DNA of 64,000 nt from Actinomycetota bacterium. GTDB lineage: Bacteria > Actinomycetota > Acidimicrobiia > Acidimicrobiales > SZUA-35. The stretch covers positions 12,924-76,923 of the forward strand of contig JBCCFL010000019.1 in the NCBI GenBank assembly GCA_039029735.1. The letters are read 5' to 3'. Of this stretch, positions 12,119-61,179 are shown piece by piece. Below the pieces are notes generated by a model. The model saw nothing but the letters and a program-made list of their open reading frames with translations, did not search any database and was not told where the DNA came from. The position numbers and the translations under genes are program-made. Positions within the stretch are counted from its first letter, which is position 1; each line of letters opens with the position of its first letter.

Positions 12119-12269
12119 GGTGCGCTCCTTGTTCGTGTTCGTGCCAGGGTTCGAGCCCGATGGCACCAGTTGGTCGAGCCGTTTTCGCCGTCACCGGGGC
12201 GATCGGTTCCCGATTGGTGAGGATCGGCCTCGGATTCACCCCGGGGGCTCCCCGCTAGAGTCCCTCGGC

Positions 12270-18950: not shown

Positions 18951-20726
18951 TCATCCGACCAGCCCGGCGAACGGGTCGGCGGTGGCACCGCTCTCGCTGA
19001 GATCGAGCGTGTCGCGATCGCCGTTGGCCACGGCCGCCTCGGCCGACCGGGTGGCCCAGGCCGGGAACGGGAACTCCACGAGCAGTGGCACCGGGAGGCG
19101 GGGCTGGGCCACGTACATCGAGCCCGGCTTGAGGATCGTGGCCCGCTGGCGCTGAACCGCCGGCAGGAACCCGTACTCGTCGCGCCGAGCCTCGGCCGGG
19201 TCGAGCCGGCCCACGACGCGGATGGCGCTGTTGGCCACCACCCGGCGCTCCACCTCGCTCGCCGTCTGTTGGGCGCCGATCAAGATAATGCCGAGGGAGC
19301 GCCCGCGCTCGGCCACGTCGAGCAGGATCTCCTTGATCGGGCTGGACGAGTCGCGCGGGGCGTACTTGTTGAGCTCGTCGAGCACCACGAGCTGGAGGGG
19401 CTTGGCCACCCCGCTCGCCTCTTTGGCCTCGAACGCCTGGCGCAGCACAACACCCACCACGAACCGCTTGGCCCGATCGTGGAGCGCGTGCAGGTCGACC
19501 ACCGTCACCTGGTGCCGATCGAGGTCGAGCCCGTATGAGGTGGCTTCGCTCACGTCGGCCCGGATGAGGTGCTCGACGTGGCGACGGGCTGAGGCGAGAC
19601 GGCGTACGAACGCGCTCACGGTGCCGCCGCTGACGGCCCGGCCCGTCCACCGGCTGGTTTCGGCGGGATCGGCGGAGTCGTCGGGGAGCAGCTTCGCCTC
19701 GATCGCGTCGACCAACTGCCCGAAGGTGCGGATCGTCTGGCCGTCGAGGCGAACGGCTCCGTCGCCGGCATCGCTCAGCTGAGCCAGCTGGGCGGTGACG
19801 GCCTGCACCACGATCGTGTACTGCTGGCGCTCGTCCTCGGCATCGGCGAAGAGGAACGGGAGCAGGCCCTGGCGGCAGAAGTCGGCCACGGTCCACAGGA
19901 ACGGGCTCACGCCGAGGTGGCGCGAGCCGGTGGCCGGCGTTGCGTTGGGGTCGCCCTTGCGGGGAGGGGCCAGGATGCCGACGTCGGCGAAGGGCCGGGG
20001 GGCGAGACCGAGGGCGTCGTAGCGGGCGGCCCGATCGGGGGCGAGGGCGGTGTTGGCGTGATCGAGGAAGAGCAGGTCCTCCCCCTTGACGTTGAAGATC
20101 AGGGCCTTAGTGTTGGCCGCCTCGGCCCCGAGCACGCCGGAGTTGAACATCGAGTAGAGCAGGAAGGTGGCATAGCTGGTTTTCGTGGCAACGCCCGACA
20201 CGCCCGAGATGTTGATGTGGGCGCCCTTGGTGCCGTCGACGAAGTCGAGGTCGAGGAACACGGGCTCCCCGCTGCGGGACAACCCGGCCGGCAGCTTGCG
20301 CTCGACCTCGTCGAACGACAGCGCAAGGTCGCGTTCGGCGTCGGTGGCCAGGCGCACGGCGTTGCCCGGGAGCGGCGGGAGCAGCACCTCCGGCTCGAAG
20401 CGGGTGGGCTGCACGAGCGCTGCTTCGCTCACTTCGGCTGGGAGCACGCCATCATCGATCAGGAACACGTCGCTCTGGAACTTGGCGCCCTCGTGACGGG
20501 CCCGCACCTGGGTGACGATGCCGAAGATCGACAGCCGATCTCCCTCGGGGAGCACCCGGTCCACCGCCACCACGTCGTCGAGCTGGAGGGTGCGGCCGGG
20601 CGCGACGGCAACCCAGAACTCGAGTGGGGTGGCGTCGTCGATGCCCAGCACCAGGCCCACCGCAGGGCCCTCGGAGCCGGACTGGCCCCCGTTCAGCGTG
20701 TGATTCGAGGCATCCGCCATTCCCAT
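18951..20726 (-). CDS. herA: HerA/FtsK-like ATPase (DUF87-type) with an N-terminal HAS-barrel-like region
   Basis: ORF 18951..20783(-) was trimmed to ATG 20726 (alternative 20720). HAS-barrel-like stretch: LEFWVAVAPGRTLQLDDVVAVD...IFGIVTQVRARHEG. The P-loop region ISGVSGVATKTSYATFLL is deviant, with Thr rather than Gly before the Lys. Walker B is LQLVVLDELNKYAP, followed by GRSLGIILIGAQQTASEV. Confidence 0.7.
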   Translation of the reverse strand: MGMADASNHTLNGGQSGSEGPAVGLVLGIDDATPLEFWVAVAPGRTLQLDDVVAVDRVLPEGDRLSIFGIVTQVRARHEGAKFQSDVFLIDDGVLPAEVSEAALVQPTRFEPEVLLPPLPGNAVRLATDAERDLALSFDEVERKLPAGLSRSGEPVFLDLDFVDGTKGAHINISGVSGVATKTSYATFLLYSMFNSGVLGAEAANTKALIFNVKGEDLLFLDHANTALAPDRAARYDALGLAPRPFADVGILAPPRKGDPNATPATGSRHLGVSPFLWTVADFCRQGLLPFLFADAEDERQQYTIVVQAVTAQLAQLSDAGDGAVRLDGQTIRTFGQLVDAIEAKLLPDDSADPAETSRWTGRAVSGGTVSAFVRRLASARRHVEHLIRADVSEATSYGLDLDRHQVTVVDLHALHDRAKRFVVGVVLRQAFEAKEASGVAKPLQLVVLDELNKYAPRDSSSPIKEILLDVAERGRSLGIILIGAQQTASEVERRVVANSAIRVVGRLDPAEARRDEYGFLPAVQRQRATILKPGSMYVAQPRLPVPLLVEFPFPAWATRSAEAAVANGDRDTLDLSESGATADPFAGLVG

Positions 20727-20805
20727 CAACGCTAGGCGGGCCCAGTGACACTCGGGCTGATACTTCCTCCCCAAACTCGCCAAACCCAGGGGCAGTGGCG
20801 ACCGG

Positions 20806-21474
20806 TCAGAGCGAGAACGGCTCGCCGTCGGCCGTCTCGCGCACCACGAACTCCTCCACGGCCACCCGCCGGAGCTTCGTGAGCTGCTTCACGGGCTTGC
20901 CGATCGGCACCAGGGCCGCCACTGCCTCATGCGGTTCGAGGTTGAGCATCTCCTGCACCTCGGGTTCGGCACTGGTGATCAGCGTGGTCATCGTGCCGCC
21001 GAGGCCCTCGTTGCGAGCCGAGAGGATGATGTTCCAGACCAGCGGGTAGATGGAGGCTCCGCTCGCCACCCCGATCCGGTCGAGATGCCAGTCGGTCGAC
21101 GCCACCTTGCGGAGATCCACGGTGACGATCAGCACCACCGGTACCTCCCCCATCGCCCGGAACATGGGCAGGATGTCCGACGGGGTGGCCTTGGCCTTCT
21201 CGAGATCCACCGTGGTGGGCACGATCGTGTTCCACGGGAACTCGCCGGCCTGGCGCTGCTGGTCGTAGATGCGGAGCGCGGGCTCGCACAACAACCCGAG
21301 GCGCTGCTTGCGCTCGGTGTCGCGAACCACGATCACCCGCTGACCCTGCCGGTTCCCGCCTGAGGGGGCGAACCGGGCGTTGTCGAAGATGCGATGGAGT
21401 GTCTCGTCGGTCACCGGGTCGTCGGTGAACTCCCGGGCTGCGAACGTGGTGCGCATGACGTCGTAGAGATCCAT
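20806..21474 (-). CDS. Nitroreductase family protein
   Basis: MDLYDVMRTTFAAREFTDDPVTDETLHRIFDNARFAPSGGNRQGQRVIVV is a typical nitroreductase N-terminus. Confidence 0.8.
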   Translation of the reverse strand: MDLYDVMRTTFAAREFTDDPVTDETLHRIFDNARFAPSGGNRQGQRVIVVRDTERKQRLGLLCEPALRIYDQQRQAGEFPWNTIVPTTVDLEKAKATPSDILPMFRAMGEVPVVLIVTVDLRKVASTDWHLDRIGVASGASIYPLVWNIILSARNEGLGGTMTTLITSAEPEVQEMLNLEPHEAVAALVPIGKPVKQLTKLRRVAVEEFVVRETADGEPFSL

Positions 21475-25856: not shown

Positions 25857-27248
25857 ATGCAGGACTACGACCTCGTCATCGTCGGAACCGGCTCGGGGAA
25901 CAGCATCCCGGGGCCCGAGTTCGACGGTTGGAACATCGCCATCGTTGAGAAGGGGGTGTTCGGCGGCACCTGCCTCAACGTGGGGTGCATTCCGTCCAAG
26001 ATGTTCGTGTACGCCGCCGACGTGGCCGAGACGATCCGCCACGCCTCCACCTACGGCATCACCGCCGAAATGCACCACGTGGACTGGCCCTCGATCCGCG
26101 ACCGGGTGTTCGGCCGGATCGACCCGATCGCGGCCGGCGGCGAGGAGTGGCGGCGGGGTGACGAGAACCCCAACATCACCGTGTACGGCGGCACCGCCCG
26201 CTTCACCGACACCAAGACGCTCACGGTCGACATGAATGACGGCGGCACCGAGACGATCTCGGGGCGCCACATCGTGCTCGGCGCTGGGGCCCGGCCCTGG
26301 GTGCCGCCGTGGAAGGGCATCGAGGACGTGGCCTACCACACGTCCGACACGATCATGCGGCTGCCGGCACTCCCGGAGCGGCTGATCGTGATGGGAGGCG
26401 GTTACATCGCCTCGGAGCTCGGCCACGTGTTCGCCAGCCTCGGATCGCACGTGACGATGATCAACCGCAGCAACGCCCTGTTGCGGGCCGAGGACGAGGA
26501 GATCTCGCACCGGTTCACCACCGTGTTCGGGCGTCGGGTGGACCTGCGCTGCGGGTCCGACGTGGAGGAGGTGACCCAGGACGACCAGGGCGTGCACGTA
26601 CGGCTGTTCCGCAACGGCGAAGAGGAGACCGTGCACGGCGACGTGCTCCTCGTGGCCACCGGGCGCCGCCCCAACGGCGACGTGCTCGACGTCGAGGCCG
26701 CCGGCATCGAGCACGACATGCACCGGGTTCTGGTGGACGAGCACTTCCGCACCAACGTGGACGGCATCTGGGCCTTCGGCGACCTGTCGAACACCTACCA
26801 GCTCAAGCACCTGGCCAACGCCGAGGTACGGGTGCTGCGCCACAACCTCCTGGTGGCCGATGGGCGCCTCGACGAGCCCATGCGCACCGTCGACACCAGG
26901 TTCGTGCCCCACGCCGTGTTCGGGAACCCGCAGGTGGCCTCTGTGGGCCTCACCGAGGCCGAAGCCCGCATGGCCGGCCGCAACATCGTGGTGGCCACGA
27001 AGGACTACGGCTCCACCGCCTACGGCTGGGCCATGGAGGACTCAGACGCTTTCGCCAAACTGATCGCGGATGCCGACACCCGGCAGCTGATAGGGGCCCA
27101 CATCATCGGCGCCCAGGCGTCTTCGCTGATCCAGCAGCTCATCCAGGGCATGCAGTTCGGTCAGACGGTCGACGAGATGGCTCACGGCCAGTTCTACATC
27201 CACCCCGCCCTGCCCGAGGTGATCGAGAACGCCCTCCTCGACTTGTGA
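25857..27248 (+). CDS. mtr: Mycothione reductase (pyridine nucleotide-disulfide oxidoreductase)
   Basis: ORF 25626..27248 was trimmed to ATG 25857. MQDYDLVIVGTGSGNSI...GGTCLNVGCIPSKMFVYAADVA matches the GTGSGN + CxxxxC N-terminus I know from mycobacterial Mtr, rather than the Lpd-type GAGPGGY. Confidence 0.85.
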   Translation: MQDYDLVIVGTGSGNSIPGPEFDGWNIAIVEKGVFGGTCLNVGCIPSKMFVYAADVAETIRHASTYGITAEMHHVDWPSIRDRVFGRIDPIAAGGEEWRRGDENPNITVYGGTARFTDTKTLTVDMNDGGTETISGRHIVLGAGARPWVPPWKGIEDVAYHTSDTIMRLPALPERLIVMGGGYIASELGHVFASLGSHVTMINRSNALLRAEDEEISHRFTTVFGRRVDLRCGSDVEEVTQDDQGVHVRLFRNGEEETVHGDVLLVATGRRPNGDVLDVEAAGIEHDMHRVLVDEHFRTNVDGIWAFGDLSNTYQLKHLANAEVRVLRHNLLVADGRLDEPMRTVDTRFVPHAVFGNPQVASVGLTEAEARMAGRNIVVATKDYGSTAYGWAMEDSDAFAKLIADADTRQLIGAHIIGAQASSLIQQLIQGMQFGQTVDEMAHGQFYIHPALPEVIENALLDL

Positions 27249-27257
27249 GCCCCGGTC

Positions 27258-27481
27258 TCACCGGTTCTCGACGGTCGCCACCCCTGCAGTTCGAACCACC
27301 GTCTGATCCTGCCGAAGGCTGTATCCCTCGAAGGTGACGACATCGACGACGAGCCCCGGCTGGTAGTAGATCGAGCCGGATCATGGCAGCACGCCACCAC
27401 CGTCCGGAGGATCGCGTCGAAGTCCTCGCCGAAGCGCACCGAATGGGCCGATCCGAGGACATGGAGTTGTGCCGAACTCAA
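27258..27481 (-). pseudogene. Possible frameshifted small ORF downstream of the 81-aa ORF
   Basis: ORF 27194..27481(-) starts at TTG, overlapping the upstream stop. After ...AILRTVVACCH its frame becomes Ser/Arg-rich and runs 55 nt into mtr. A different frame from about 27380 encodes SIYYQPGLVVDVVTFEGYSLRQDQTVVRTAGVATVENR. That frame has GC-rich third positions and stops at 27258, clear of mtr. Confidence 0.25.
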
Positions 27482-27723
27482 ACTGAGTGCTCGTCCCTCA
27501 CTGGCGAGTTGTCGGCAACGAACGCTGCGATGAGATCAGAGTCGCCTTCGGCGAGAGCACACAGATCGGGGTGCGGTTCTCGTCCGAGCGCGCGCAATCC
27601 ACGTGCGGCGCGCACCGCGTCGGCCACGGCGATCACGGCGAGCGACTTGGCGTCGAGCCCGAGATCCTCGAGACGTACCGGACCGCTCCTGTCGATCGGC
27701 TCGCCGGTACGTTTCAGGACCAT
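27478..27723 (-). CDS. Hypothetical 81-aa protein immediately downstream of the FDH operon
   Basis: ATG 27723 lies 43 nt after the stop of the Fe-S subunit gene on the same strand. Third codon positions are GC-rich. Sequence is MVLKRTGEPIDRSGPVRLEDLGLDAKSLAVIAVADAVRAARGLRALG.... No family recognised. Confidence 0.45.
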   Translation of the reverse strand: MVLKRTGEPIDRSGPVRLEDLGLDAKSLAVIAVADAVRAARGLRALGREPHPDLCALAEGDSDLIAAFVADNSPVRDEHSV

Positions 27724-27766: not shown

Positions 27767-28660
27767 TCAGGAGCCGTGGACGTAGCCCCAGCCGAAGCGG
27801 CCCTTGATGCACAGATGCCCCGACGTCACCGAGTGATCCGCCGGTGAGGTCACCTTGACGATCTGCTCGTCCTGCACGTGCAGTTCGAGGTTGCACCCCA
27901 CACCGCAGTACGAGCACACCGTCTGGGTCACGGTCTGCTCCTCGGGCCGCCACTTGGCCGCCTCCCGCAAGTCGAACTCGGTCTTGAACTGCAGCGCGTT
28001 GGTGGGGCAGACCGCCACGCAGTTGCCGCAGTAGACGCAGGCCGAGTCGGGCAGTTCGGCGTCGAACTCGGTTCGGATCCTCGCGTCGAAACCTCGGCCC
28101 GCCACGGCGATCGCGTAGGTGTGCTGTGCATCGTCGCCGCACGCCTCCACGCACTTGTAGCAGAGCACGCACTTGTCGTAGTCACGAATGTAGAGGTCGT
28201 CCTCGATCCGGACCGGCTCGTCCATGCGGGCCCGGTCCACGCCGTAGCGATCGGGGTCGGCGCCGTAGGCCTCGATCCAGGTGTTGATGTCGTCGGCCTG
28301 GCTCAGGTCGACGCCGGTGGCGAGGAACTCCAGCACCATCTTGCGACTGTGGCGCACGCGCTCGGAGTCGGTCTGGATCTCCATGCCAGCCTCGGCGGGC
28401 CGGGAGCACGCGGGTACCAACGTGCGCGAGCCCTCCATCTCCACCACGCACACCCGGCAGGCGTTCACCGGTGTGAGGTTCTCGGCATAGCAGATCGTTG
28501 GCGTGTCGACGCCGGCCGCCGTACACGCATCGAGCACCGATGCGCCGGCGGGCACCTCGACGGCCTGGCCATCGATCGTGAGCGACACCGGGGTCTCCAC
28601 CGCATCACCGCCACCGGCCGGGGCCGAGCCGTTCGTGTTGGGGGTCATCGACGTGGTCAT
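27767..28660 (-). CDS. Formate dehydrogenase Fe-S module: a NuoG/FdsA N-terminal-like [2Fe-2S] and 2x[4Fe-4S] region, plus the Mo-bisPGD-type [4Fe-4S] motif, encoded as a separate polypeptide
   Basis: ORF 27767..28855(-) was trimmed to ATG 28660 (GGGAGGG SD; ATGA overlap with the upstream stop). Motifs: SLTIDGQAVEVP...ICY...NACRVCVVE (2Fe-2S), CVLCYKCVEAC and CVYCGNCVAVCP (4Fe-4S). It ends ...TVCSYCGVGCNLELHV...HLCIKGRFGWGYVHGS*, which is exactly where canonical FdsA/FdhF continues with RLT.PL.R. Confidence 0.8.
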   Translation of the reverse strand: MTTSMTPNTNGSAPAGGGDAVETPVSLTIDGQAVEVPAGASVLDACTAAGVDTPTICYAENLTPVNACRVCVVEMEGSRTLVPACSRPAEAGMEIQTDSERVRHSRKMVLEFLATGVDLSQADDINTWIEAYGADPDRYGVDRARMDEPVRIEDDLYIRDYDKCVLCYKCVEACGDDAQHTYAIAVAGRGFDARIRTEFDAELPDSACVYCGNCVAVCPTNALQFKTEFDLREAAKWRPEEQTVTQTVCSYCGVGCNLELHVQDEQIVKVTSPADHSVTSGHLCIKGRFGWGYVHGS

Positions 28661-30402
28661 GATTGCCCTCCCACGAGGCCAAGATCGATCGCCGACCGCA
28701 CGGCGGTGGCCGCAGTGTGTCCGAGCCCGCAGATCGACGCATCCTTCATGGCCTGATCCATCTCGGCCAGCAGCGCCACTGGGGTTGCGCCCGGCGCCGC
28801 GAGCAACTCGTGCTGGCGGATCGTGCCCACCCGACACGGCACGCATTGGCCGCACGACTCGTCGCGGAAGAACTCGGCGATCCTGGTGACGACGGGCTCC
28901 ATGTCGATCGTGTGGTCGAAGGCCATCACCACCCCCGAGCCGAGCGACACCCCGGCAGCCCGGGTGTCTTCGAACGTGAGTGGCAGATCGAGGGAGCTGG
29001 CGTCCACGAACGAACCGGCCGCCCCACCCAGCAGCACGGCCTGCAGGTCGCCAGCCACACCACCGGCGAGGTCGAGCAGCTCACGGAGCGTCATGCCGAA
29101 CGGCACCTCGTACAACCCGGGGCTGGCCACCCGGCCCGACACGCAGAACAGCTTCGTGCCAGTCGAGCCGTCGGTGCCCACCGAGGCGTAGGCCTCTCCC
29201 CCGTCGGTCACGATGTCGAGCACGTTCAGCAACGTCTCGGGGTTGTTGACCACGGTGGGGGCGTCGAACAGGCCGTTCGTGGTGGGGAACGGCGGCTTCT
29301 GCCGTGGCTCGCCCCTGAACCCTTCGAGGGAGTTGAACAGCGCCGTCTCCTCCCCACAGATGTAGGCGCCGGCACCACGGCGGATCTCGATATCGAACGA
29401 GAACGACGACCGGGCAATCCGCTCTCCCAGGAAGCCAGCCTCGCGAGCCTGGTCGATGGCACCCTGCAACCGGGCGGTCGCCAACGGATACTCGCCCCGG
29501 ATGTAGATCCAGCCCTTGGTCGCCCCGACGGCGAAGCCGGCGATCGTGGCGGCCTCGATCACGGCGAACGGATCGTTCTCCATCACGATGCGGTCTTTGA
29601 ACGTGCCGGGCTCCGACTCATCGGCGTTGACCACCACGTGTTTCGGGCCTGCCTCGTCGGCAACGGCCCGCCACTTGATCCCGGTAGGGAACGCGGCGCC
29701 GCCCCGGCCCATCAGCCGGGCCGCCTGCACCTCGGCAATCACCCCGTCGGCCCCGCTGGTGAACGCCTCGGCGAGGGCCTTGTAGCCGCCAGCACCGACG
29801 TAGCTCTGCAGGTCGGTGGGGTCGACCACACCAACGCGGCGAAGGAGCCGGAGGCGAGGGTCGGCCCGCTGGGGCACGAGCGGGGCCGGGGGCGTGTCGG
29901 CGGCGACATCGACCGGCACCCAGTCGGCCTTGGCTCGGCCCTGGACGAACTGGGCCACCGGCCGCTCGCACTGCCCGAGGCAGGGGCTCCGGTGGACGTG
30001 GCGGCCGGCCGCTTCGGCCTCGGCGATCACCTCGGCCGCACCGGCGATCTGGCAGGCCGCGTCGACACACACGTGCACCACGTCGTCGCTGTGGCCGGGG
30101 TCGTCCACCCGGAACAGGTCGTAGAAGGTGGCCACGCCGTAGGCCTCGGCCGGTGGCACGCCGAGCACCTCGGCGATGTGGTTGAGGCCACCCGGACTGA
30201 TCCATCCTGCCTCACGCTGCAGGGCGTGGAGGCACGGGAGCAGCAGGTGACGCCGCTCGTTGCGGCGGCTCACACCACCGAGCACGAGCCGCTCGTTGGC
30301 CACCACCACGGTGGGGCCGGCAGCCGAAGCCGCGACAACAGCGTCGATCGCCGCCGCCTCCGCCTCCGTCGCCTGGTCGGCGGAGATGTGCAGATCGGTC
30401 AC
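28657..30402 (-). CDS. NuoE-NuoF fusion-like diaphorase subunit (FdsG/FdsB-like; FMN, NAD, Fe-S)
   Basis: The N-terminal part is thioredoxin-like [2Fe-2S] (CVDAAC...SPCLGQCE). The NuoF-like part has GRGGAAFPTGIKW, NADESEPGTFKDR, and ESCGQCVPCR...CGLG. The GTG start overlaps the upstream stop (GTGA). Confidence 0.85.
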   Translation of the reverse strand: MTDLHISADQATEAEAAAIDAVVAASAAGPTVVVANERLVLGGVSRRNERRHLLLPCLHALQREAGWISPGGLNHIAEVLGVPPAEAYGVATFYDLFRVDDPGHSDDVVHVCVDAACQIAGAAEVIAEAEAAGRHVHRSPCLGQCERPVAQFVQGRAKADWVPVDVAADTPPAPLVPQRADPRLRLLRRVGVVDPTDLQSYVGAGGYKALAEAFTSGADGVIAEVQAARLMGRGGAAFPTGIKWRAVADEAGPKHVVVNADESEPGTFKDRIVMENDPFAVIEAATIAGFAVGATKGWIYIRGEYPLATARLQGAIDQAREAGFLGERIARSSFSFDIEIRRGAGAYICGEETALFNSLEGFRGEPRQKPPFPTTNGLFDAPTVVNNPETLLNVLDIVTDGGEAYASVGTDGSTGTKLFCVSGRVASPGLYEVPFGMTLRELLDLAGGVAGDLQAVLLGGAAGSFVDASSLDLPLTFEDTRAAGVSLGSGVVMAFDHTIDMEPVVTRIAEFFRDESCGQCVPCRVGTIRQHELLAAPGATPVALLAEMDQAMKDASICGLGHTAATAVRSAIDLGLVGGQS

Positions 30403-32402
30403 GTGACAGCTGCCCCTTCCAGCTCATCGGTGCTGGTGTGCTGCGCGGCTGGGTCGAGCTTCTCCACCCGGATGGCGGCCGCCTTGAACTCGGCCGTGCC
30501 GGACCGCTTGTCCCAGGCGTCGTTGGTCAACACGTTGGCATCCACCAGTTCGGGAAAGTGGAAGGTGGTGAAGGTCAAGCCCCGAGGCAGGTCGGGCTGG
30601 ATCCGTACCGCCATCTCCACCGAACCCCGCGGCGAGCTGACGAGCACCCGCTCTCCGTCACCGATGCCGAGCGCCTGGGCGTCGTCGGGATTGACGTCGA
30701 GCGCCTCGCCGTAACGAATGGGCGACGAGAGGGACCCCGACTGCACGCCCGTGTTGTAGGAGTCGAGCGATCGGCCCGTGGTGAGGCGCAGGGGGAAGTC
30801 TGGGGTGAGCGCCTCCTTCGGGCCCTCGTGCTCCACGACGCTGAACGGGGCGGGGTCACGGCCCTCACGATCGGCGGCCCAGAGCCAGCCGTGGAGGAAT
30901 GGGCTGCCGGGATGATCCTCGGACGGGCAGGGCCACTGGAGCCCACCCTCGGACTCCAGCCGATCCCAGGTCATCCCCTGATGCAGCGGCGAGAGCGAGC
31001 GCAGCTCGTCCCACAGCTCGTGCGGGGTCGGAGTGCCCCAGCCGGCGCCCATGCGGTTGGCGAGGTCGGCCAGGATGTCGATGTCGTGGCGGGCCTCGCC
31101 CGGCGGCGGCACGGCGGCCCGTACCCGCTGCACCCGGCGCTCGCTGGAGGTCACGGTGCCGTCGGACTCCGCCCACGCCACCGAGGCGGGAAGCACCACG
31201 TCGGCCAGTTCGGCGGTGCGGGTCAGGAAGATGTCCTGCACAACGAGGAGGTCGAGGCCCTCCAGCAGATCGCGGGCGTGGGCCACGTCGGCCTCGGAGT
31301 CGGCCGGGTTCTCACCGATGCAGTAGACGGCCCGCAGCTCGCCGGCCTTCATTGCCTCGAACATGAGTGTGAGGTGGAGCCCGGGCTCGGGGTTGAGCTC
31401 CACCCCCCAGGCGGCCTCGAACTTGGCCCGGGCGGCGGGATCGACCACGTCCTGGAAGCCGGGGAACTTGTTGGGCAGCGCGCCCATGTCGCCCCCGCCC
31501 TGCACGTTGTTCTGCCCCCGCAGGGGGACGAGCCCCGAACCCCAGCGGCCGACGTGGCCGGTGAGCAACGCGAGGTTGCACAGCGACAACACGTTGTCGA
31601 CGGCGTTGTGGTGCTCGGTGATGCCCAGCGTCCAGAGGATCTGCGCCTTGTCGGCGGTGGCGTAGGCCTCGGCCAACTCGGCGATGGCGGCCGCCGGCAC
31701 GCCGGTGATCTCCTCAGCCACCTCGAGCGTGTAGGGCTCGACAGCATCGACGTAGGCGTCGAAGCCCTGGGTGGCGTGGGCGATGAACTCTGCGTTGTGC
31801 CAGCCGTTGGCGATGATGTGGCGACCAACGGCGTTGGCGAGGGCGATGTCGGTGCCCACGTTCAGGCCGAGCCAGGCGTCGGCGAACTTCGCCGACGAGG
31901 TGCGGCGCGGGTCGACGGCGAACATCTGAGCGCCGTTGTCCAACCCCTTCATGAGGTGATGGAAGAAGATCGGGTGGGCCTCTCGGGCGTTGGAGCCCCA
32001 GAGCACGATCACATCAGTTTCGTGGATCTCCTGGTAGGAGCAGGTGCCGCCGCCGGCACCGAACACTGTCGCCAGACCGACGACGGAGGGAGCGTGTCAA
32101 GTTCGGTTGCAGGAGTCGATGTTGTTCGACCCCAGCACGGTGCGAGCAAACTTCTGGGCGGCGAAGTTCATCTCGTTCGTCGCCTTCGAGCAGCTGAACA
32201 TGCCCACTGCCCGGGGGCCGTGCTCGTCGACGGTGGCTCGCAGGCCAGTGGCCACCCGGTCGAGGGCCTCGTCCCACGTGGCGGGCCTGAGCTCGCCGTT
32301 GTCGCGCACGAGGGGCTGGGTGAGGCGCGGACGCTGTCGAGCCAGCCGACCCCGGCGACGGCCCGAGCGGGAGGAGCCGTTGGTGTGGGTGGGAGCAGTC
32401 AT
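30399..32402 (-). CDS. Formate dehydrogenase catalytic (molybdopterin bis-PGD) subunit, read through an in-frame UGA (selenocysteine candidate); lacks the usual N-terminal Fe-S module
   Basis: ORFs 32097..32477(-) and 30399..32066(-) share a frame and are separated only by TGA 32099-32097. The joined sequence reads ...SNNIDSCNRT-U-HAPSVVGLATVFGAGGGTCSYQEIHETDVIVLWGSN.... I place the start at ATG 32402 (MTAPTHTNG...RLTQPLVRDNGELRPATWDEALDRV). Confidence 0.8.
32068..32084 (-). other. Candidate SECIS apical hairpin
   Basis: The mRNA reads UGA CAC GCU CCC UCC GUCGUC-GGUCU-GGCGAC. This gives a 6-bp stem (one G-U pair) and a GGUCU loop starting 13 nt after the UGA. It occupies the same V/A-G-L codon context as the GGUC loop of the E. 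coli fdhF SECIS. Confidence 0.5.
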
Positions 32403-32470
32403 GGGTGCCGAACCTCGTCTGGACGTGGGTAGTGATCTGGGGCCGCAGGATTGTCCCACGAAGCGGAACA

Positions 32471-32486
32471 GTTCCACTCTGCGGAT
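32471..32486 (-). promoter_or_regulatory. Weaker copy (12/16) of the C1-cluster 16-mer, 69 nt upstream of the FDH operon start
   Basis: The minus strand reads ATCCGCAGAGTGGAAC, against TTCTGCATCGTGGAAC at 56348 and 61113. It overlaps the palindrome GGAAC-A-GTTCC. Confidence 0.3.
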
Positions 32487-44659: not shown

Positions 44660-46161
44660 CTCGACGGAGGAGCCGCACCCGGCCCGCCCCGCCGCCGCGT
44701 CCGCTCGTCACCCCTCCCCCACTCGGCGGTTCGTATCGCCCCTTGTCGGCCGCCGACGCCGACCGGATCGTCGACCACGCCTTCGACATGCTCGGCGCCG
44801 TCGGCATGGCCGGCGCTCCCGTGCGCCATGCCGACCTGTTGCTCGCGGCCGGCGCCTCCCGGCGCGACGACGGGCGGCTCCTGTTCCCGCGCCCGATGGT
44901 GGAGGCGGCGTTGCGTCGATCACCGTCGGCGGTGCAGCTCCCCGGGTTCATCGAGGATCGAGGCGTGACCATTGGCGGCGGCCGCGTGCACATCGGCACC
45001 GGCGGGGCCGCCGTGCAGGTGCTGGACGCCGCCACGGGAACCTATCGCGACTCCAAGCTGCGTGACCTCTGGACGATGATGCGGGTGCTCGACGAGATGG
45101 CGAACATCCACTACGGGCTTCGGCCTCTCGTGGCCCGCGACGTGGTGGATCCGCTCGAACTCGATCTCAACACGGCCTTCGCCGTCACGGCGGCAACGGC
45201 TAAGCCCACCGGGGTGAGCTTCACCTCGGCCGCCACCGTCGACCCGGTGGTTGACCTGTTCGACGCCGCCCTCGGCGGTGAAGGGCGCTTCGCCCGCCAA
45301 CCGTTCTCGATGGCCGTGGTGGTGCACGTGGTGCCGCCGCTGCGCTTCTCGCCGGAGGGCTGCGAAATCATGGAGCGGGCGATCGAGCGCGGCATGATCG
45401 TGCAGACGTGCTCGGCCGGGCAGGCCGGCGCCACCTCTCCCCCGTCACTCGCTGGCAGCCTGGCTCAGGGCCTGGCCGAGATCCTGGCGGGCGTGGTGTT
45501 GGCCGACGCAATCAAGCCCGGCCATCCCTGCATCCACGCCTTCATGCCCTTCGTGTCCGACCTGCGCACCGGCGCCATGACCGGCGGTAGCGGCGAGGCC
45601 GCCGTGACCAGCGCCGCTGCGGCCCAGCTGCTGCGGCAGCTGGAGATTCCCCACGCCGTATCGGCCGGAATCACCGAGGCGAAGGAGGCCGACAACCAGG
45701 CCGGATACGAGAAGGGCTACACCGTGGCCCTGGCAGCCCAAGCAGGAGCGGAGATGGTGCAGCTGTCGGTGGGCATGCTCGGCTCGATCATGGTGGCGAG
45801 CCCCGAGACTCTCGTGATCGACAGTGACATGTGTGGCGCCATCCTCCGCTCCGTTCGGGGCGTGGAGGTGGACATCGGGTACCTCGACATGGCGATCATC
45901 GAAGAGGTGGTGGGCGGCGACGGTCACTACCTGGGCTCGGCCCAAACGCTGGAGCTGATGCGCAGCGAGTACGTGTATCCCGACCTGGGCGACCGGCAGT
46001 CGGTCGACGAGTGGGTGTCGGCCGGCAGCCCGGCCCTGTGGGCCCGGGCTTCGGCCCAGGTTGCCGACATCGTTGCCGGAGGACGGGCTGGCCATCTCTC
46101 CGTCGATGCCGAGGCGGCGATCCGCTCCCGCTTCCCGATTCGTCTGGAGGCCACACCATGA
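44656..46161 (+). CDS. MttB-superfamily methyltransferase homolog (non-pyrrolysine; glycine betaine/quaternary amine type)
   Basis: 501 aa with no in-frame TAG. Contains YRPLSAADADRIVDHAFDMLGAVGM..., GGGRVHIGTGGAAVQVLD, QTCSAGQAGATSP, and VIDSDMCGAILRSVRG. Confidence 0.75.
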   Translation: MTRRRSRTRPAPPPRPLVTPPPLGGSYRPLSAADADRIVDHAFDMLGAVGMAGAPVRHADLLLAAGASRRDDGRLLFPRPMVEAALRRSPSAVQLPGFIEDRGVTIGGGRVHIGTGGAAVQVLDAATGTYRDSKLRDLWTMMRVLDEMANIHYGLRPLVARDVVDPLELDLNTAFAVTAATAKPTGVSFTSAATVDPVVDLFDAALGGEGRFARQPFSMAVVVHVVPPLRFSPEGCEIMERAIERGMIVQTCSAGQAGATSPPSLAGSLAQGLAEILAGVVLADAIKPGHPCIHAFMPFVSDLRTGAMTGGSGEAAVTSAAAAQLLRQLEIPHAVSAGITEAKEADNQAGYEKGYTVALAAQAGAEMVQLSVGMLGSIMVASPETLVIDSDMCGAILRSVRGVEVDIGYLDMAIIEEVVGGDGHYLGSAQTLELMRSEYVYPDLGDRQSVDEWVSAGSPALWARASAQVADIVAGGRAGHLSVDAEAAIRSRFPIRLEATP

Positions 46162-48626
46162 GCGACGACCGGTTCGAGATCGTTGTGATCGGCGGCGGCG
46201 CCGTCGGTACCGCGATCCAATGGCATCTGGCGATGGCGGGCCGGACCGACTCGGTACTGATCGAGAAGCACGAGCTCACCGCCGGTTCCACGTGGCACGC
46301 CGCCGGCAACGTGCCGACGTTCTCGAACAGCTGGCTCGGCCAGCGGGCCGGCAACTACGCCTGGCGGCTCTACTCCGAGCTGGCCGCCGATCCCGACGAT
46401 CCGATCACGTATCGCCACACCCGAGCCTTCTGGCCGGGGCACACGCCGGAACGCATCGATCACTTCCATCACCTCCTGGCGATCGCCACCGGGCTCGGGT
46501 TCGATCTGCAGCTCGTGTCGCCGTCTGAGATGGAGGCGATGCACCCGTTCTGGCACGACGACGGCTCGGTGATCGCTGGCCTCCTCGACCCCTACGAGGG
46601 CGACATCGACCCAAGCGGCCTCACCCAATCGCTCGCCCGTCGCTCCCGCGCCCTCGGCGCCGAGGTGCGCCGCCACACCCGGGTGGTTGGCATCGACCGG
46701 CTGAACGGCGGCGACGCGCGATGGCGGGTGCACGTTCACACTGCGGCCGGAGCCGGCTTCATCGACTGCGACATCGTGATCAACGCGGCCGGGTTCTACG
46801 GTGCCGACGTCTCCGCGATGGTGGGCGTCGAGGTGCCGCTCGCCGTGCTCGAACACCAGTACCTCGTCACGGGGCCCGTGCCAGAGCTGAAGGCTCACGA
46901 CGAGGTGTTCCCCCTCGTGCGCGACCCGGAGATCATGTTCTACCTCCGGCGAGAGAACGACCGGCTGCTCTTCGGCAACTACGGCCACGAGGGCCGAACC
47001 GTGTGGGAGGACGGTCGGCCCGACGTGTTCGACTCGTCACTCTTCGCCGCCGACGACGAAGGCATCGCCGAGGTGGCCGAACAGGCCATGGCCCACCTGC
47101 CGATTCTGGGCGAAGTCGGGATCGCCGAGTTCGTGAACGGGCCGATCACCTACACCCCCGATATGAACCCGCTGATCGGTCCGGCGGCCGGCGTCGATGG
47201 CTTCTATCAGGCGATCGGGGTGCAGATCGGCATCACCCACGCGGCGGCAGCAGGCAAGGTGCTCACCGAGCTGATCACGGCCGGCGACACCGAATGGGAC
47301 GTGTGGCCCTGGGATCCCCGTCGCTTCGGCCGGTGGTCGCTCGCCGGACAGGGGCGGGACTCCTACGCCAACGCCCGAGTGCGGGAGATGTACGAGCACC
47401 AGTACGGCGCGCCGTTCCCGCACCGGCTGTGGACGACGGCCCGCCCCGTACAGCAGACGCCGCTGTATGAGACGTTGGCGGCCAAGGGCGCCCGCTTCGG
47501 GCAGATCGCCGGCTGGGAGCGGGCGTTCTGGTTCGGCGCCGAGGAGTACAGCCACCGCACGTTGAGCTACCGCGACGAACACTGGCACGATGCCGTGGCT
47601 GGGGAGTGCGCCGCCGTTCGCGATCACGTCGGGGTGATGGACCACGGGGGCTTCACTCGCTTCGAGGTGTCGGGGCCTGGGGCCGAGGCCTTCCTGGACC
47701 GGATGTTCTGCACGAGGCTGCCCAACCCCGGCCGGGTGCGGCTGTCGTACATGCTCCGCCCAAACGGCACGGTGTGGAGCGAGGCCACGATCGGTCGGCT
47801 CGGTGAGGATCACTTCCTGCTCCTCGGCCCGACGGCGGCCCGCGAACGCGACTTCGACTGGCTCGATCGCCACCTGCCCCGCAACGGCTCAGTCGAGCTC
47901 CGCTACGGCGTCGACCGCACATCGACGCTGATGGTGATGGGGCCTCGGTCGCGTGAGCTGTTGGGACGGCTCACCGACGCCGATCTGTCGAAGGAGGCGG
48001 CACCGTGGATGTCGCTGCGGGAGATCGAGATCGCCGGGGCGATGGTGACCGCGTTGCGGGTGAGCTTCGTCGGTGAGCTCGGCTGGGAGCTGCACTGCGA
48101 TGATGCCGACCTCGTGGCGCTCTATCGCGCCATCCACGATGCCGGCACCGACCTCGGGATCAGGGACTTCGGCTCCTACGCGCTCAACGCGATGCGCGTC
48201 GAGAAGGGCTACCACGGCTGGGGCAGCGAGTTCGGCGTGGAGTACACGCCCTACGACGTGGGGCTCGAACGCTTCCTCGCCCTCGACAAGGGCGACTTCG
48301 TGGGGCGGGATGCAGCGCTCAGGGCCGGCGCGGCGCCGGCCGAGTGGAGCTACGGCGTGTGGACGGTGGACACCTCCGGTGTCGACGGGCCAGCCGGCGA
48401 TCCGCCACCGTCGGCGCCAATCCGGGTCGATGGCAAGGCGGTGGGGTTCGTAACGTCGGCGTCGATGGGCTTCCGGATCGGCGGCCGGGTGTGTCTGGGC
48501 TACGTGGAGGGCGCCGTCGCTCACCAGATGGACGGCTTCACGATCGACGCCTATGGCGCCGACTGCCCGGCCCAACGCCACCCCCACGGCGTGTACGACC
48601 CCGACCACGAACGCCCCCGCAGCTGA
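46158..48626 (+). CDS. Dimethylglycine/sarcosine dehydrogenase-family enzyme (FAD DAO domain + GcvT folate-binding domain, 822 aa)
   Basis: ORF 45831..48626 was trimmed to ATG 46158, which is ATGA-coupled to the MttB stop. Contains MSDDRFEIVVIGGGAVGTAIQWHLA...GSTWHAAGNVP. The C-terminal GcvT-like part has GVMDHGGFTRFEVSGPGA...VSFVGELGWELH. Confidence 0.85.
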   Translation: MSDDRFEIVVIGGGAVGTAIQWHLAMAGRTDSVLIEKHELTAGSTWHAAGNVPTFSNSWLGQRAGNYAWRLYSELAADPDDPITYRHTRAFWPGHTPERIDHFHHLLAIATGLGFDLQLVSPSEMEAMHPFWHDDGSVIAGLLDPYEGDIDPSGLTQSLARRSRALGAEVRRHTRVVGIDRLNGGDARWRVHVHTAAGAGFIDCDIVINAAGFYGADVSAMVGVEVPLAVLEHQYLVTGPVPELKAHDEVFPLVRDPEIMFYLRRENDRLLFGNYGHEGRTVWEDGRPDVFDSSLFAADDEGIAEVAEQAMAHLPILGEVGIAEFVNGPITYTPDMNPLIGPAAGVDGFYQAIGVQIGITHAAAAGKVLTELITAGDTEWDVWPWDPRRFGRWSLAGQGRDSYANARVREMYEHQYGAPFPHRLWTTARPVQQTPLYETLAAKGARFGQIAGWERAFWFGAEEYSHRTLSYRDEHWHDAVAGECAAVRDHVGVMDHGGFTRFEVSGPGAEAFLDRMFCTRLPNPGRVRLSYMLRPNGTVWSEATIGRLGEDHFLLLGPTAARERDFDWLDRHLPRNGSVELRYGVDRTSTLMVMGPRSRELLGRLTDADLSKEAAPWMSLREIEIAGAMVTALRVSFVGELGWELHCDDADLVALYRAIHDAGTDLGIRDFGSYALNAMRVEKGYHGWGSEFGVEYTPYDVGLERFLALDKGDFVGRDAALRAGAAPAEWSYGVWTVDTSGVDGPAGDPPPSAPIRVDGKAVGFVTSASMGFRIGGRVCLGYVEGAVAHQMDGFTIDAYGADCPAQRHPHGVYDPDHERPRS

Positions 48627-51780: not shown

Positions 51781-52758
51781 TCAGGCGCCGCGGCGGCGTC
51801 GGATCTCGGCTGAGATCGCCGGAACCACCTTGTGGAGATCGGCGATCACGGCGTAGTCGGCCTTCGACACCATGTTGGCTTCCGGGTCGGTGTTGATGGC
51901 CAGGATGCGCTTGGAGGCCATGGCCCCCACCCAGTGCTGGATGGCACCCGAGATGCCGGTGGCGATGTAGATCTCAGGCGCGATCCTCGTGCCGGTCTGA
52001 CCCACCTGATCGCTGTGGGGCCGCCAGCCGTTGTTGGTGACGGCTCGGGAGCACCCCACCACACCGCCGAGCAGCTCGGCGAGCTCCTCCAGGGGAGCGA
52101 ATGCGTCGGCCGAACCGACGCCACGACCGCCCGACACCACCACCGGTGAGGTCGACAGGGTGATGCCCTGACTGAGCACGTCGCGGTCGGCGATCATCGT
52201 GACGGTGACCGACTCGTCCAGGTCGGGCTCGAAGGTCTCCACGGTGGCATCACCGGCGGCGTCGGCCGGTTCGGCGGCCACCGCGTGATGGGCGTAGGTG
52301 ACGAGCTTGCGGTCGGCGGTGAGCGTCACATCTTCGAGCAGCGAGCCGCCCCACTGCACCCGGGTGACCGACCACGGGTCGTCGTCGGTGTCGATCTCGG
52401 TGCAGTTGGCCACGAACGGGGCGTCGATGCGGGCCGCCATCTGGGCCATCACCTCGTTGCCACGGTCGGTGCCGACCGACATCACCACATCGGCATCGGC
52501 GTCGTCAGCCAGCTGGGCCAGGGCCTCGGCCCAGGCGTCGGGCCCGTAGTCGGTGAGCAGGTCGTGGCTCACCACGTGCACGGTGTCGGCACCGAAGCGG
52601 CCGGCTTCGTCCACCACATCATCGGCCCCGGCACCGATGGCGACGGCGTCGATCGACTCGCCGAGCGAGTCACCCAGGATCCGAGCCGCAGTCAGCGCCT
52701 CACGCGCCGCCTCAGTGATCTCGCCGCAATCATGTTCGAGGAGAACCAGCATCGTCAT
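51781..52758 (-). CDS. etfA: Electron transfer flavoprotein alpha subunit
   Basis: Contains VVSGGRGVGS...GCSRAVTNNGW...QVGQTGTRIAPEIYIATGISGAIQH. The start overlaps the etfB stop by 4 nt. Confidence 0.9.
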   Translation of the reverse strand: MTMLVLLEHDCGEITEAAREALTAARILGDSLGESIDAVAIGAGADDVVDEAGRFGADTVHVVSHDLLTDYGPDAWAEALAQLADDADADVVMSVGTDRGNEVMAQMAARIDAPFVANCTEIDTDDDPWSVTRVQWGGSLLEDVTLTADRKLVTYAHHAVAAEPADAAGDATVETFEPDLDESVTVTMIADRDVLSQGITLSTSPVVVSGGRGVGSADAFAPLEELAELLGGVVGCSRAVTNNGWRPHSDQVGQTGTRIAPEIYIATGISGAIQHWVGAMASKRILAINTDPEANMVSKADYAVIADLHKVVPAISAEIRRRRGA

Positions 52759-57060: not shown

Positions 57061-57091
57061 CCCTCGCCGTTGAGCCCACTAGGTTGGCCCC

Positions 57092-61128: not shown

Positions 61129-61179
61129 AGTCTTGATCAGCCAGGGACCTCTGATCCCCGAACCCGGAAGCAGCCGCGA

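What the first reader, a model, noticed from the sequence alone, without database searches (positions are those of the whole stretch)
32068..32099. Selenocysteine-type UGA in the formate dehydrogenase catalytic gene, with an fdhF-like SECIS loop
The ORF track splits the catalytic gene into 32097..32477 and 30399..32066. Both pieces are in one frame and are separated only by TGA (32099-32097). Reading through gives SNNIDSCNRT-[UGA]-HAPSVVGLATVFGAGGG. This is the conserved Mo/W-bisPGD formate dehydrogenase active-site segment, in which E. coli FdhF has Sec (CARV-U-HGPSVAGL) and many homologs have Cys.

Thirteen nucleotides downstream, GUCGUC-GGUCU-GGCGAC can form a hairpin. Its GGUCU loop falls on the same Gly-Leu codons as the GGUC apical loop of the E. 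coli fdhF SECIS.

This implies that the organism has a selenoprotein and the sel machinery. I believe that is uncommon in this kind of high-GC lineage.
Basis: partly seen in the sequence, partly recalled or inferred. Interest (0 to 1): 0.7.

Follow-up and report, generated by a model that had tools for sequence, protein, structure and literature searches.

The report
Selenocysteine codon in formate dehydrogenase gene
The in-frame TGA is a genuine selenocysteine codon, with its RNA hairpin signal, in the catalytic subunit of an NAD-linked formate dehydrogenase; the call is correct, but this kind of gene is ordinary and already documented, and gene callers routinely cut it in two.

Summary
On the minus strand, TGA (32099-32097) joins two in-frame pieces of one 667-codon Mo/W-bisPGD formate dehydrogenase gene. 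It sits in the Sec/Cys metal-ligand column, followed by the catalytic His.

- **Conservation:** the same TGA occurs in 80/80 orthologous loci from six phyla.
- **Translation continues:** the codons just after it vary synonymously, including TCN/AGY serine switches.
- **Hairpin:** GUCGUC-GGUCU-GGCGAC (32084-32068) shows the lowest third-codon-position entropy (taken as a proxy for synonymous variation) of the whole gene. It pairs in 99.8% of cells, has one compensatory pair, and places GGUCUG in the same register as E. coli fdhF.
- **Sel genes:** selD-selA-selB and tRNA-Sec adjoin the operon in six Chloroflexota loci (complete in two) and one Pseudonocardia locus. None lies in this window.
- **Published support:** Ilumatobacter nonamiensis, which carries this operon, is listed as SelD+/SelA+/SelB+ with 10 selenoproteins.

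The alpha subunit is also split. The catalytic gene lacks the Fe4S4 domain, which sits on a separate FeS protein encoded after a NuoE/NuoF fusion gene. This three-gene "FDH3" layout was described in Actinomycetospora in 2020.

Verdict: a new member of a known kind, of low interest.

The parts
30399..32402 (-). Catalytic subunit gene of a Mo/W-bisPGD formate dehydrogenase (FdhA3-like). It has 667 codons including one Sec codon. The ATG start at 32402 is inferred; GAGG lies about 10 nt upstream. Its own stop is the TGA at 30401-30399.
   Evidence: Pfam Molybdopterin and Molydop_binding domains, with no Molybdop_Fe4S4. TIGR01591 profile positions 48-672, 658 bits. PDB matches begin after the Fe4S4 domain of FdhF-type chains and at residue 295 of R. 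capsulatus FdsA. Stop and start context.
32097..32099 (-). In-frame UGA read as selenocysteine (codon 102). It sits in the metal-ligand Sec/Cys column and is followed by the catalytic His.
   Evidence: sequence. (TGA in 81/81). (aligned to the C/X in CARLCHAP / CARLXHS). (Cys in Nonomuraea-type homologs: CNRT-C-HAPSVAGL).
32068..32084 (-). SECIS-type hairpin. The stem pairs 32084-32079 with 32073-32068. The apical loop GGUCU is at 32078-32074.
   Evidence: third-codon positions invariant only here. (99.8% paired; C-G to G-C compensatory change; U-G to C-G and U-A). (RNAalifold consensus). (same register as E. coli fdhF). (-8.3 kcal/mol).
28657..30402 (-). Beta (diaphorase) subunit, a NuoE-NuoF fusion with a 2Fe-2S domain, an FMN/NAD(H) site and a 4Fe-4S domain. 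Its GTG start overlaps the catalytic gene's TGA stop (GTGA).
   Evidence: Pfam 2Fe-2S_thioredx, Complex1_51K, SLBB and NADH_4Fe-4S. Full-length match to the M. extorquens tungsten FDH1 beta subunit, 7e5z_B residues 44-556. Overlap shown.
27767..28660 (-). Separate FeS subunit of 297 aa (FdhC3-like). It is NuoG/HoxU-like (2Fe-2S plus 4Fe-4S domains) and ends with the Molybdop_Fe4S4 (FS0) domain that the catalytic subunit lacks. Its ATG overlaps the upstream TGA stop (ATGA).
   Evidence: Pfam Fer2_4, Fer4 and Molybdop_Fe4S4, ending 2 aa before the stop. C-terminal residues 247-295 match TIGR01591 positions 1-49. It aligns to R. capsulatus FdsA residues 22-303. Frames are shown.

Best explanation
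The TGA at 32099-32097 is a selenocysteine codon. During translation of the catalytic-subunit mRNA, SelB carrying Sec-tRNA(Sec) binds the hairpin GUCGUC-GGUCU-GGCGAC. That hairpin starts 12 nt after the UGA and presents G23/U24 in its apical loop, as the E. coli fdhF SECIS does. SelB delivers Sec to the ribosome instead of allowing termination. The product is a ~71-kDa Mo/W-bisPGD subunit whose selenol ligates the metal, next to the catalytic His and Arg.

The subunit has no FeS cluster of its own. It assembles with two proteins made from the same translationally coupled operon:
- a 297-aa FeS protein that carries the proximal Fe4S4 (FS0) domain plus NuoG-like clusters;
- a NuoE/NuoF fusion carrying FMN.

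Electrons from formate therefore pass Mo/W -> FS0 -> FeS chain -> FMN -> NAD+. This is a cytoplasmic NAD-linked formate dehydrogenase of the 'FDH3' type.

The operon probably disposes of formate produced by the tetrahydrofolate-linked oxidation of methyl groups. Dimethylglycine/sarcosine dehydrogenase-like genes and formate-THF ligase lie in the same window.

Shown here: the codon, its conservation, translation across it, the RNA constraint, the domain split and the gene order. Inferred: actual Sec insertion, complex assembly, NAD+ as acceptor and the physiological role.
For: **The codon**
- TGA is present in 81/81 orthologs at 64-86% protein identity, from Acidimicrobiales, Thermoleophilia, Pseudonocardia, Chloroflexota, Acidobacteriota, Isosphaeraceae and Spirochaetia.
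- Of the 120 closest database proteins, 115 begin just after this codon and none contains the active-site motif. Gene callers are stopped at the same place everywhere.

**Translation through it**
- Codons +1 to +4 (H A P S) keep their amino acids while third positions use all four bases, and Ser switches between TCN and AGY.
- The first possible restart codon, Val +11, is GTG/GTC/GTA/GTT and so is not conserved as a start.

**Position**
- The TGA aligns with the Cys/Sec ligand of solved formate dehydrogenases. The His and the RGQNNVQG arginine are present.
- Cys homologs exist with the same N-terminus.

**RNA signal**
- Third-position entropy is zero only over the hairpin, and Gly +7 is GGT in 72/72 distinct sequences.
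- The hairpin is 99.8% paired, with one compensatory and three one-sided pair-preserving changes.
- RNAalifold finds the same helix, and its register is identical to real E. coli fdhF.

**UGA is not reassigned**
- 20 of 24 genes in the window end in TGA, including this one.

**Sec machinery**
- selD, selA, selB and tRNA-Sec adjoin the operon in L053 and L079. One or more of these genes adjoin it in L064, L068, L069, L071 and L077. NCBIfam equivalog cut-offs were checked and passed for L079 SelD/SelA/SelB and L053 SelB.
- Peng 2016 Tables S1/S2 list I. nonamiensis YM16-303 (our locus L013), I. coccineus and Ca. Microthrix as SelD+ SelA+ SelB+ with 10, 15 and 7 selenoproteins.

**Enzyme type**
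- The FeS protein and the catalytic subunit together tile fused FdsA, at residues 22-303 and 295-933, and TIGR01591, at positions 1-49 and 48-672.
- The beta subunit matches Fdh1B over its full length.
- The identical three-subunit FDH3 was described in Actinomycetospora: FdhA3 640 aa with U80, FdhB3 614 aa, FdhC3 316 aa. All three subunits were detected by proteomics, and formate removal depended on selenium.
- fhs and folD adjoin the operon in 19 and 13 loci, and fhs is in this window.
Against: - No selA, selB, selD or tRNA-Sec lies in the 64-kb window or within 10 kb of the operon in any Acidimicrobiales locus. The machinery is therefore unverified for this genome.
- One Acidimicrobiia MAG that carries the operon (bin134, our L041, about 90% complete) is tabulated with SelD but without SelA or SelB.
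- The hairpin's folding energy alone is not significant, and the single-sequence MFE of the 63-nt region prefers a different structure.
- No Rfam SECIS family matches. Bacterial fdhF-type elements are poorly represented in Rfam.
- No experimental data exist for this organism. NAD+ as the acceptor is inferred from homology only.
Confidence: 0.92

Rival explanations
1. The gene is a pseudogene, or the TGA is a sequencing or assembly error. Under this reading the TGA is a nonsense mutation or a miscalled TGC/TGT, and the gene is dead or mis-sequenced.
For: Gene callers split the gene. The N-terminal FeS domain seems to be 'missing', which at first sight looks like truncation.
Against: The same TGA occurs in 80 independent assemblies across phyla. 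Both flanks stay in frame and conserved. The 'missing' domain is encoded by a conserved separate gene in essentially all loci whose contigs extend that far.
Confidence: 0.01
2. The TGA is a genuine stop, and the gene makes two polypeptides: a ~100-aa N-terminal piece and a ~555-aa piece restarted downstream, which assemble without selenocysteine.
For: A GTG lies 11 codons downstream in the window, and databases list the 540-560-aa product. This family already tolerates one fission of the alpha subunit.
Against: The ten codons between the TGA and that GTG encode the catalytic His and conserved residues. Their synonymous variation is typical of translated sequence. The GTG is not conserved as a start, being GTC/GTA/GTT in many loci. 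Such an enzyme would lack its metal ligand. The hairpin constraint and the adjacent sel clusters would go unexplained.
Confidence: 0.02
3. The UGA is read through with a standard amino acid (Cys, Trp or Arg via a near-cognate or suppressor tRNA), independently of the Sec machinery. The hairpin merely stimulates read-through.
For: Sel genes could not be checked in this genome. One related MAG is tabulated without SelA or SelB. Cys works at this position in homologs.
Against: The hairpin keeps the SelB-contacting GGUC loop in the E. coli register. Sel clusters with tRNA-Sec adjoin the operon in seven loci. Ilumatobacter and Microthrix genomes are published as SelA+/SelB+/SelD+. If Cys were the product, a TGA-to-TGY change would be expected somewhere among 80 loci, and none is seen.
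Confidence: 0.04

Closest known systems
Escherichia coli FdhF (formate dehydrogenase H) Sec140 codon and the fdhF SECIS element
   Same: The UGA sits in the same active-site column (CARV-U-HGPSVAGL against CNRT-U-HAPSVVGL). The hairpin starts at the same distance from the UGA. GGUCUG falls on the same Gly-Leu codons, at positions 22-27.
   Different: The stem sequence differs: there are 6 continuous pairs without the E. coli bulged U, and a 5-nt loop (GGUCU) instead of 4 nt in the MFE fold. The protein lacks FdhF's own N-terminal Fe4S4 domain. Its partners are NuoEF/NuoG-like proteins rather than hydrogenase 3.
FDH3 of Actinomycetospora chiangmaiensis DSM 45062 (FdhA3/FdhB3/FdhC3; Rohwerder et al. 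2020, PMC7176365)
   Same: The architecture is the same three-subunit one:
- a Sec-containing ~640-aa alpha subunit homologous only to the metallopterin part of FdsA;
- a ~600-aa NuoE/NuoF fusion beta subunit;
- a ~300-aa separate FeS protein replacing the alpha N-terminal domain.

That enzyme is predicted to be cytoplasmic and NAD+-dependent. All three subunits were detected by proteomics, and formate removal was selenium-dependent. An ortholog from a Pseudonocardia MAG (L079) is 64% identical to the window protein and sits next to selD-selA-selB and tRNA-Sec.
   Different: The class differs: Acidimicrobiia here, Actinomycetes there. The window protein has a longer, unconserved N-terminal tail, so Sec is residue 102 rather than 80. 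No direct alignment with the published proteins was possible, because their sequences were not retrievable here.
Fused NAD+-dependent metal formate dehydrogenases: Rhodobacter capsulatus / Cupriavidus necator FdsABG and Methylorubrum extorquens Fdh1AB
   Same: The cofactor chain is the same. The FeS protein and the catalytic subunit together align end to end with FdsA, at residues 22-303 and 295-933. The beta subunit aligns over its full length with Fdh1B.
   Different: Those enzymes carry Cys, not Sec, and have one fused alpha polypeptide. Here the alpha subunit is split at the Fe4S4/Mo boundary, and the two parts are encoded in permuted order around the beta gene.
Mycobacterial Sec-containing formate dehydrogenase (FdhA/FdoG type) with adjacent selABCD (PMC13449736)
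   Same: It is a high-GC actinobacterial Sec-FDH with a SECIS just after the UGA, and it is often the reason the sel genes are kept.
   Different: That enzyme is the membrane/periplasm-oriented FDH-N/O type. The window protein scores only 165 bits against NF041513, whose cut-off is 1400.

Membership tests
Bacterial selenoprotein gene (SelB/SECIS-dependent UGA recoding) | An in-frame UGA at a position where homologs carry Sec or Cys | tested here: met
   Cys homologs are shown.
Bacterial selenoprotein gene (SelB/SECIS-dependent UGA recoding) | The reading frame is conserved and under protein-level selection on both sides of the UGA | tested here: met
   Codons +1 to +4 vary synonymously, and both flanks are conserved in 80 loci.
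Bacterial selenoprotein gene (SelB/SECIS-dependent UGA recoding) | A stem-loop starting about 11-13 nt after the UGA with G/U in the apical loop, conserved at the RNA level | tested here: met
   No Rfam model matches.
Bacterial selenoprotein gene (SelB/SECIS-dependent UGA recoding) | selA, selB, selC (tRNA-Sec) and selD present in the same genome | not testable with these tools
   All are absent from the 64-kb window, and the rest of the genome is not available. In relatives they lie adjacent to the operon in 7 loci. They are published for Ilumatobacter and Ca. Microthrix. One related MAG lists SelD only.
Bacterial selenoprotein gene (SelB/SECIS-dependent UGA recoding) | Selenium actually incorporated at the UGA | not testable with these tools
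   This needs 75Se labelling or mass spectrometry.
Mo/W-bisPGD formate dehydrogenase alpha subunit (TIGR01591, FdhF/FdsA type) | Molybdopterin and Molydop_binding domains, with the Sec/Cys-His pair and the conserved Arg | tested here: met
   The motifs are U-H at 102-103 and LRGQNNVQG.
Mo/W-bisPGD formate dehydrogenase alpha subunit (TIGR01591, FdhF/FdsA type) | An N-terminal Fe4S4 (FS0) domain on the same polypeptide, and a full-length model score above the cut-off | tested here: not met
   The protein matches profile positions 48-672 only, scoring 658.3 bits against a cut-off of 666.25. Positions 1-49 lie at the C-terminus of the separate FeS protein.
FDH3-type three-subunit cytoplasmic NAD+-linked formate dehydrogenase (Rohwerder et al. 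2020) | A Sec alpha subunit without an FeS domain, a NuoE/NuoF fusion, and a separate ~300-aa FeS protein, all in one operon | tested here: met
.
FDH3-type three-subunit cytoplasmic NAD+-linked formate dehydrogenase (Rohwerder et al. 2020) | Direct sequence orthology to the A. chiangmaiensis FdhA3/B3/C3 proteins | not tested
   The published accessions could not be fetched. The only link is indirect, through the Pseudonocardia locus L079.
FDH3-type three-subunit cytoplasmic NAD+-linked formate dehydrogenase (Rohwerder et al. 2020) | Formate:NAD+ oxidoreductase activity of the assembled complex | not testable with these tools
   No enzyme of this split type has been purified, according to the papers read.

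The most novel reading that the evidence does not exclude
This split, gene-order-permuted Sec-FDH is one coherent and widely transferred module. It consists of the catalytic domain, a NuoEF fusion, and an FeS protein that carries the proximal Fe4S4 cluster in trans. It occurs in at least six phyla with an almost invariant SECIS, and annotation systematically truncates it.

The gene order suggests an origin by tandem duplication of an fdsGB-A operon followed by complementary deletions. In aerobic heterotrophs such as Ilumatobacter it would be an oxygen-exposed, NAD+-linked selenoenzyme. That is a class with no purified representative, and it could be a useful CO2/formate catalyst.
Probability: 0.45. 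Interest if true: 0.4.

Novelty: new member of a known kind. Interest (0 to 1): 0.2.

Why it matters
The main value is for annotation. In this window, and in at least 115 of the 120 closest database entries, the gene is recorded as a ~100-aa fragment plus a ~550-aa protein that lacks its active-site residue. Metabolic reconstructions of Acidimicrobiales and other MAGs will therefore misjudge it.

Recognising the gene as one Sec protein, with its two partner subunits, restores a complete cytoplasmic formate-oxidising step. That step fits the methyl-group/THF genes nearby.

The recoding itself adds nothing new to Sec biology. The mechanism, the enzyme family, the split FDH3 layout and the Sec trait of this lineage are all already published.

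Tried and rejected
- **Rfam.** Neither gathering thresholds on the whole window nor permissive thresholds on 31900-32250 gave a SECIS or tRNA-Sec match. This is uninformative, because fdhF-type bacterial SECIS elements are poorly modelled.
- **Sel genes in the window.** ARAGORN found no tRNA. The seven loci where it did find hits had representative hits checked with NCBIfam (L079 SelD/SelA/SelB and L053 SelB).
- **Sel genes in Acidimicrobiales chromosomes.** I searched the protein database with the L079 SelA. All 120 listed hits were Pseudonocardia-like.
- **A contig-length coincidence.** P0020 and P0213 both had a longest contig of 13804 bases. The P0020 contig carries no sel gene.
- **Exact look-up of the window's ProS.** It is not on record, so the source genome could not be identified.
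- **The single-sequence MFE structure** of the 63-nt region.
- **Small ORFs downstream of the FeS gene** (27478-27723 and 27139-27462). They have no counterpart in any of the 80 loci, so they are not part of the operon.
- **A second in-frame-TGA candidate at 51781-51783.** It is the boundary between ETF-alpha and an unrelated ORF.
- **The split alpha subunit as a possible novelty.** I rejected this after finding the published FDH3 description.
Full report
**1. The observation**

The window has about 68% GC. On the minus strand, the ORF list gives 32097..32477 and 30399..32066. Reading the strand shows the two are in one frame and separated only by TGA at 32099-32097. The translation is ...SNNIDSCNRT*HAPSVVGLATVFGAGGG....

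The proposed hairpin GUCGUC-GGUCU-GGCGAC lies at 32084-32068, after a 12-nt spacer. It folds at -8.3 kcal/mol.

**2. What the gene is**

Read through the TGA from ATG 32402, the gene encodes 667 residues. They carry the Pfam Molybdopterin and Molydop_binding domains. The best solved relatives are all formate dehydrogenases:
- T. kivui HDCR FdhF (E = 2e-158);
- the F420-dependent FDH;
- R. capsulatus FdsA;
- E. coli FDH-H.

The TGA column is the Cys/Sec metal-ligand column (CARL-C-HAP, CARL-X-HS). The next residue is the catalytic His, and the RGQNNVQG arginine is present.

**3. Is the TGA more than an accident?**

A scan of one genome per species returned 80 orthologous loci at 64-82% identity. 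They come from Acidimicrobiales/Ilumatobacter/Microthrix, Thermoleophilia/Gaiella, a Pseudonocardia MAG, Chloroflexota, Acidobacteriota, Isosphaeraceae and Spirochaetia.

All 80, plus the window, have TGA at this codon. In the protein database, 115 of the 120 nearest entries begin a few residues after it, and none contains the active-site motif. Gene callers are therefore stopped at the same place everywhere.

Translation clearly continues across the codon:
- Codons +1 to +4 keep His-Ala-Pro-Ser while their third positions use all four bases.
- Ser alternates between TCN and AGY.
- The Val codon that callers use as a restart is GTG, GTC, GTA or GTT in different loci.

UGA is not reassigned in this organism. 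Twenty of 24 confident genes in the window end in TGA. This gene itself does, in a GTGA overlap with the next gene's start.

**4. The RNA signal**

In the codon alignment, third-position entropy falls to 0.000 bits for the five codons Val-Val-Gly-Leu-Ala at +5 to +9. This holds in the 44 Acidimicrobiales-like sequences, where it is the lowest of 109 windows against a gene mean of 0.99 bits. Across all 81 sequences the value is 0.069, the lowest of 71 windows. Gly +7 is GGT in 72 of 72 distinct sequences, whereas the four Gly codons further on use every base.

- It is paired in 99.8% of cells.
- It has one compensatory change (C-G to G-C, two sequences, both changes synonymous).
- It has one-sided changes that keep pairing (U-G to C-G in nine sequences, U-G to U-A in five, U-A to U-G in six).

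RNAalifold recovers the same helix without prompting. The alternative long stem in the single-sequence MFE is only 83% paired and shows no covariation.

Real E. coli fdhF sequence, fetched from a RefSeq genome, reads TGA CAC GGC CCA TCG GTT GCA GGT CTG. The GGUCUG of the apical region therefore occupies exactly the same positions as in the window.

Energy alone would not have been convincing, since 13 of 200 shuffles fold as well. Rfam has no matching family.

**5. The Sec machinery**

The window holds no tRNA and no SelA/B/D homolog. The same is true of the 10-kb flanks of the Acidimicrobiales loci. For this genome the machinery is therefore unverified.

In relatives the link is direct:
- In six Chloroflexota loci (L053, L064, L068, L069, L071, L077) and the Pseudonocardia locus L079, sel genes lie immediately beside the operon. 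All three of selD, selA and selB are there in most of them, and tRNA-Sec in six of the seven.
- The L079 SelD, SelA and SelB hits and the L053 SelB hit pass the NCBIfam equivalog cut-offs.

The published survey of Peng et al. 2016 adds more:
- Ilumatobacter nonamiensis YM16-303, whose contig is our locus L013 with the TGA, is listed as SelD+, SelA+, SelB+.
- Ilumatobacter coccineus and Ca. Microthrix parvicella are listed the same way.
- Their selenoprotein counts are 10, 15 and 7, far above the usual 1 for Actinobacteria.

A 2026 preprint reports the full machinery in all Actinomarina genomes.

There is one caution. The sponge MAG bin134 (our L041, about 90% complete) is tabulated with SelD but without SelA or SelB.

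**6. What else is there: a split alpha subunit**

The catalytic protein has no Molybdop_Fe4S4 domain. Its alignment to FdhF-type chains starts at about residue 60, and to R. capsulatus FdsA at residue 295.

The operon continues with two further genes:
- 30402-28657 encodes a NuoE/NuoF fusion. It matches the M. extorquens tungsten FDH1 beta subunit over its full length.
- 28660-27767 encodes a 297-aa FeS protein with Fer2_4, two Fer4 domains and a terminal Molybdop_Fe4S4 domain.

The FeS protein's last 49 residues match TIGR01591 positions 1-49, and the catalytic protein matches positions 48-672. Against FdsA, the two proteins cover residues 22-303 and 295-933.

The alpha subunit is thus cleanly cut at the Fe4S4/Mo boundary, and its two halves are encoded in permuted order around the beta gene. 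Start and stop codons overlap (GTGA, ATGA), which suggests translational coupling.

The order is conserved in essentially all 80 loci whose contigs extend that far. The nearest relatives of the FeS protein are all short stand-alone proteins, and fused alphas appear only at 35-43% identity. Cys-type versions with the same N-terminus exist in Nonomuraea and Streptomyces.

**7. Comparison with what is known**

I first took the split for a possible novelty. It has in fact been published. Rohwerder et al. 2020 described 'FDH3' of Actinomycetospora chiangmaiensis as follows:
- FdhA3: 640 aa, Sec at U80, homologous only to the metallopterin part of FdsA/Fdh1A.
- FdhB3: 614 aa, a NuoE/NuoF fusion.
- FdhC3: 316 aa, a separate FeS protein that replaces the alpha N-terminal domain.

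That work predicted the SECIS, detected all three subunits by proteomics and showed selenium-dependent formate removal. The window operon fits that description feature by feature, although I could not align it to the published proteins directly.

Formate dehydrogenase alpha is also the most widespread bacterial selenoprotein, found in 822 organisms in Peng et al.. GC content had no effect on Sec use in that study. About 40% of mycobacteria carry a Sec-FDH.

**8. Likely role**

Several genes for methyl-group and C1 metabolism lie nearby:
- Formate-THF ligase adjoins the operon in 19 related loci, and FolD in 13.
- FdhD sits next to it in at least some Thermoleophilia and Chloroflexota loci (confirmed for L054).
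- The window itself holds two dimethylglycine/sarcosine-dehydrogenase-like genes, an ETF subunit and formate-THF ligase.

The simplest reading is oxidation of formate released from THF-bound C1 units to CO2, with reduction of NAD+. This is an inference from homology and context.

**9. Verdict**

The supporting claim of rarity is wrong, and the gene is one third of a split enzyme rather than a whole FdhF. It is a new member of a known kind. Its practical value is in correcting a systematic annotation error.

Noticed in passing
window 27767-32402 (minus strand): The FDH alpha subunit is split at the Fe4S4/Mo-domain boundary, and its halves are encoded in permuted order: catalytic part, then the NuoE/F fusion, then the FeS part ending in the Fe4S4 domain. 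Start and stop codons overlap (GTGA, ATGA). The layout is conserved in about 80 loci from six phyla and was already described as FDH3 in Actinomycetospora.
   Followed up: yes
window 45828-48626 (+), 53650-56256 (-), 51781-52908 (-), 57083-59515 (+), 61105-62877 (+): This part of the window carries several genes for methyl-group and C1 metabolism. There are two DAO+GCV_T proteins (dimethylglycine/sarcosine dehydrogenase-like), an ETF alpha subunit and formate-THF ligase. A xanthine/CO-dehydrogenase-type molybdenum subunit also lies among them. These suggest a source for the formate that the FDH would oxidise.
   Followed up: partly
L053:640-4965, L064, L068, L069, L071, L077, L079:5550-9302: In six Chloroflexota loci and one Pseudonocardia locus, selD, selA, selB and tRNA-Sec (some or all of the four) sit directly beside the orthologous FDH operon. 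This may point to transfer as one selenium-utilisation module. In Acidimicrobiales the sel genes lie elsewhere.
   Followed up: partly
window 51781-51783 (minus strand): This is the only other TGA in the window flanked by high-GC3 coding sequence in the same frame on both sides. It separates the ETF-alpha ORF from a 102-aa ORF with no family match. I judged it an ordinary gene boundary, but did not test it comparatively.
   Followed up: partly
P0401 (Nonomuraea polychroma, 245 aa): This protein begins as a Cys-type FdhA3 homolog (...CNRTCHAPSVAGL...) and, after about 165 residues, continues as the C-terminal part of FdhD. It looks like the scar of a deletion that removed most of an FDH3 operon.
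   Followed up: no
PMC5649159 Table S4, bin134 (= locus L041, MPNQ01000054.1): This sponge-associated Acidimicrobiia MAG carries the TGA-containing operon. It is tabulated with SelD but with no SelA or SelB. The cause could be the missing ~10% of the genome or a real gap, and this remains unresolved.
   Followed up: partly
L076:3059-3156 and L045:10964-11053: ARAGORN reports unusually long 'tRNAs' of 90-98 nt (Asp-atc, Gly-gcc) inside the FDH coding sequence. In L076 the call starts just after the Sec codon. These are probably false positives.
   Followed up: no
window 1-5265 (minus strand): A very long ORF of more than 1755 codons runs off the window end. It has FG-GAP repeats and no other Pfam match. 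The neighbouring large ORFs 10025-12190 and 18951-20888 have no Pfam family at all.
   Followed up: no
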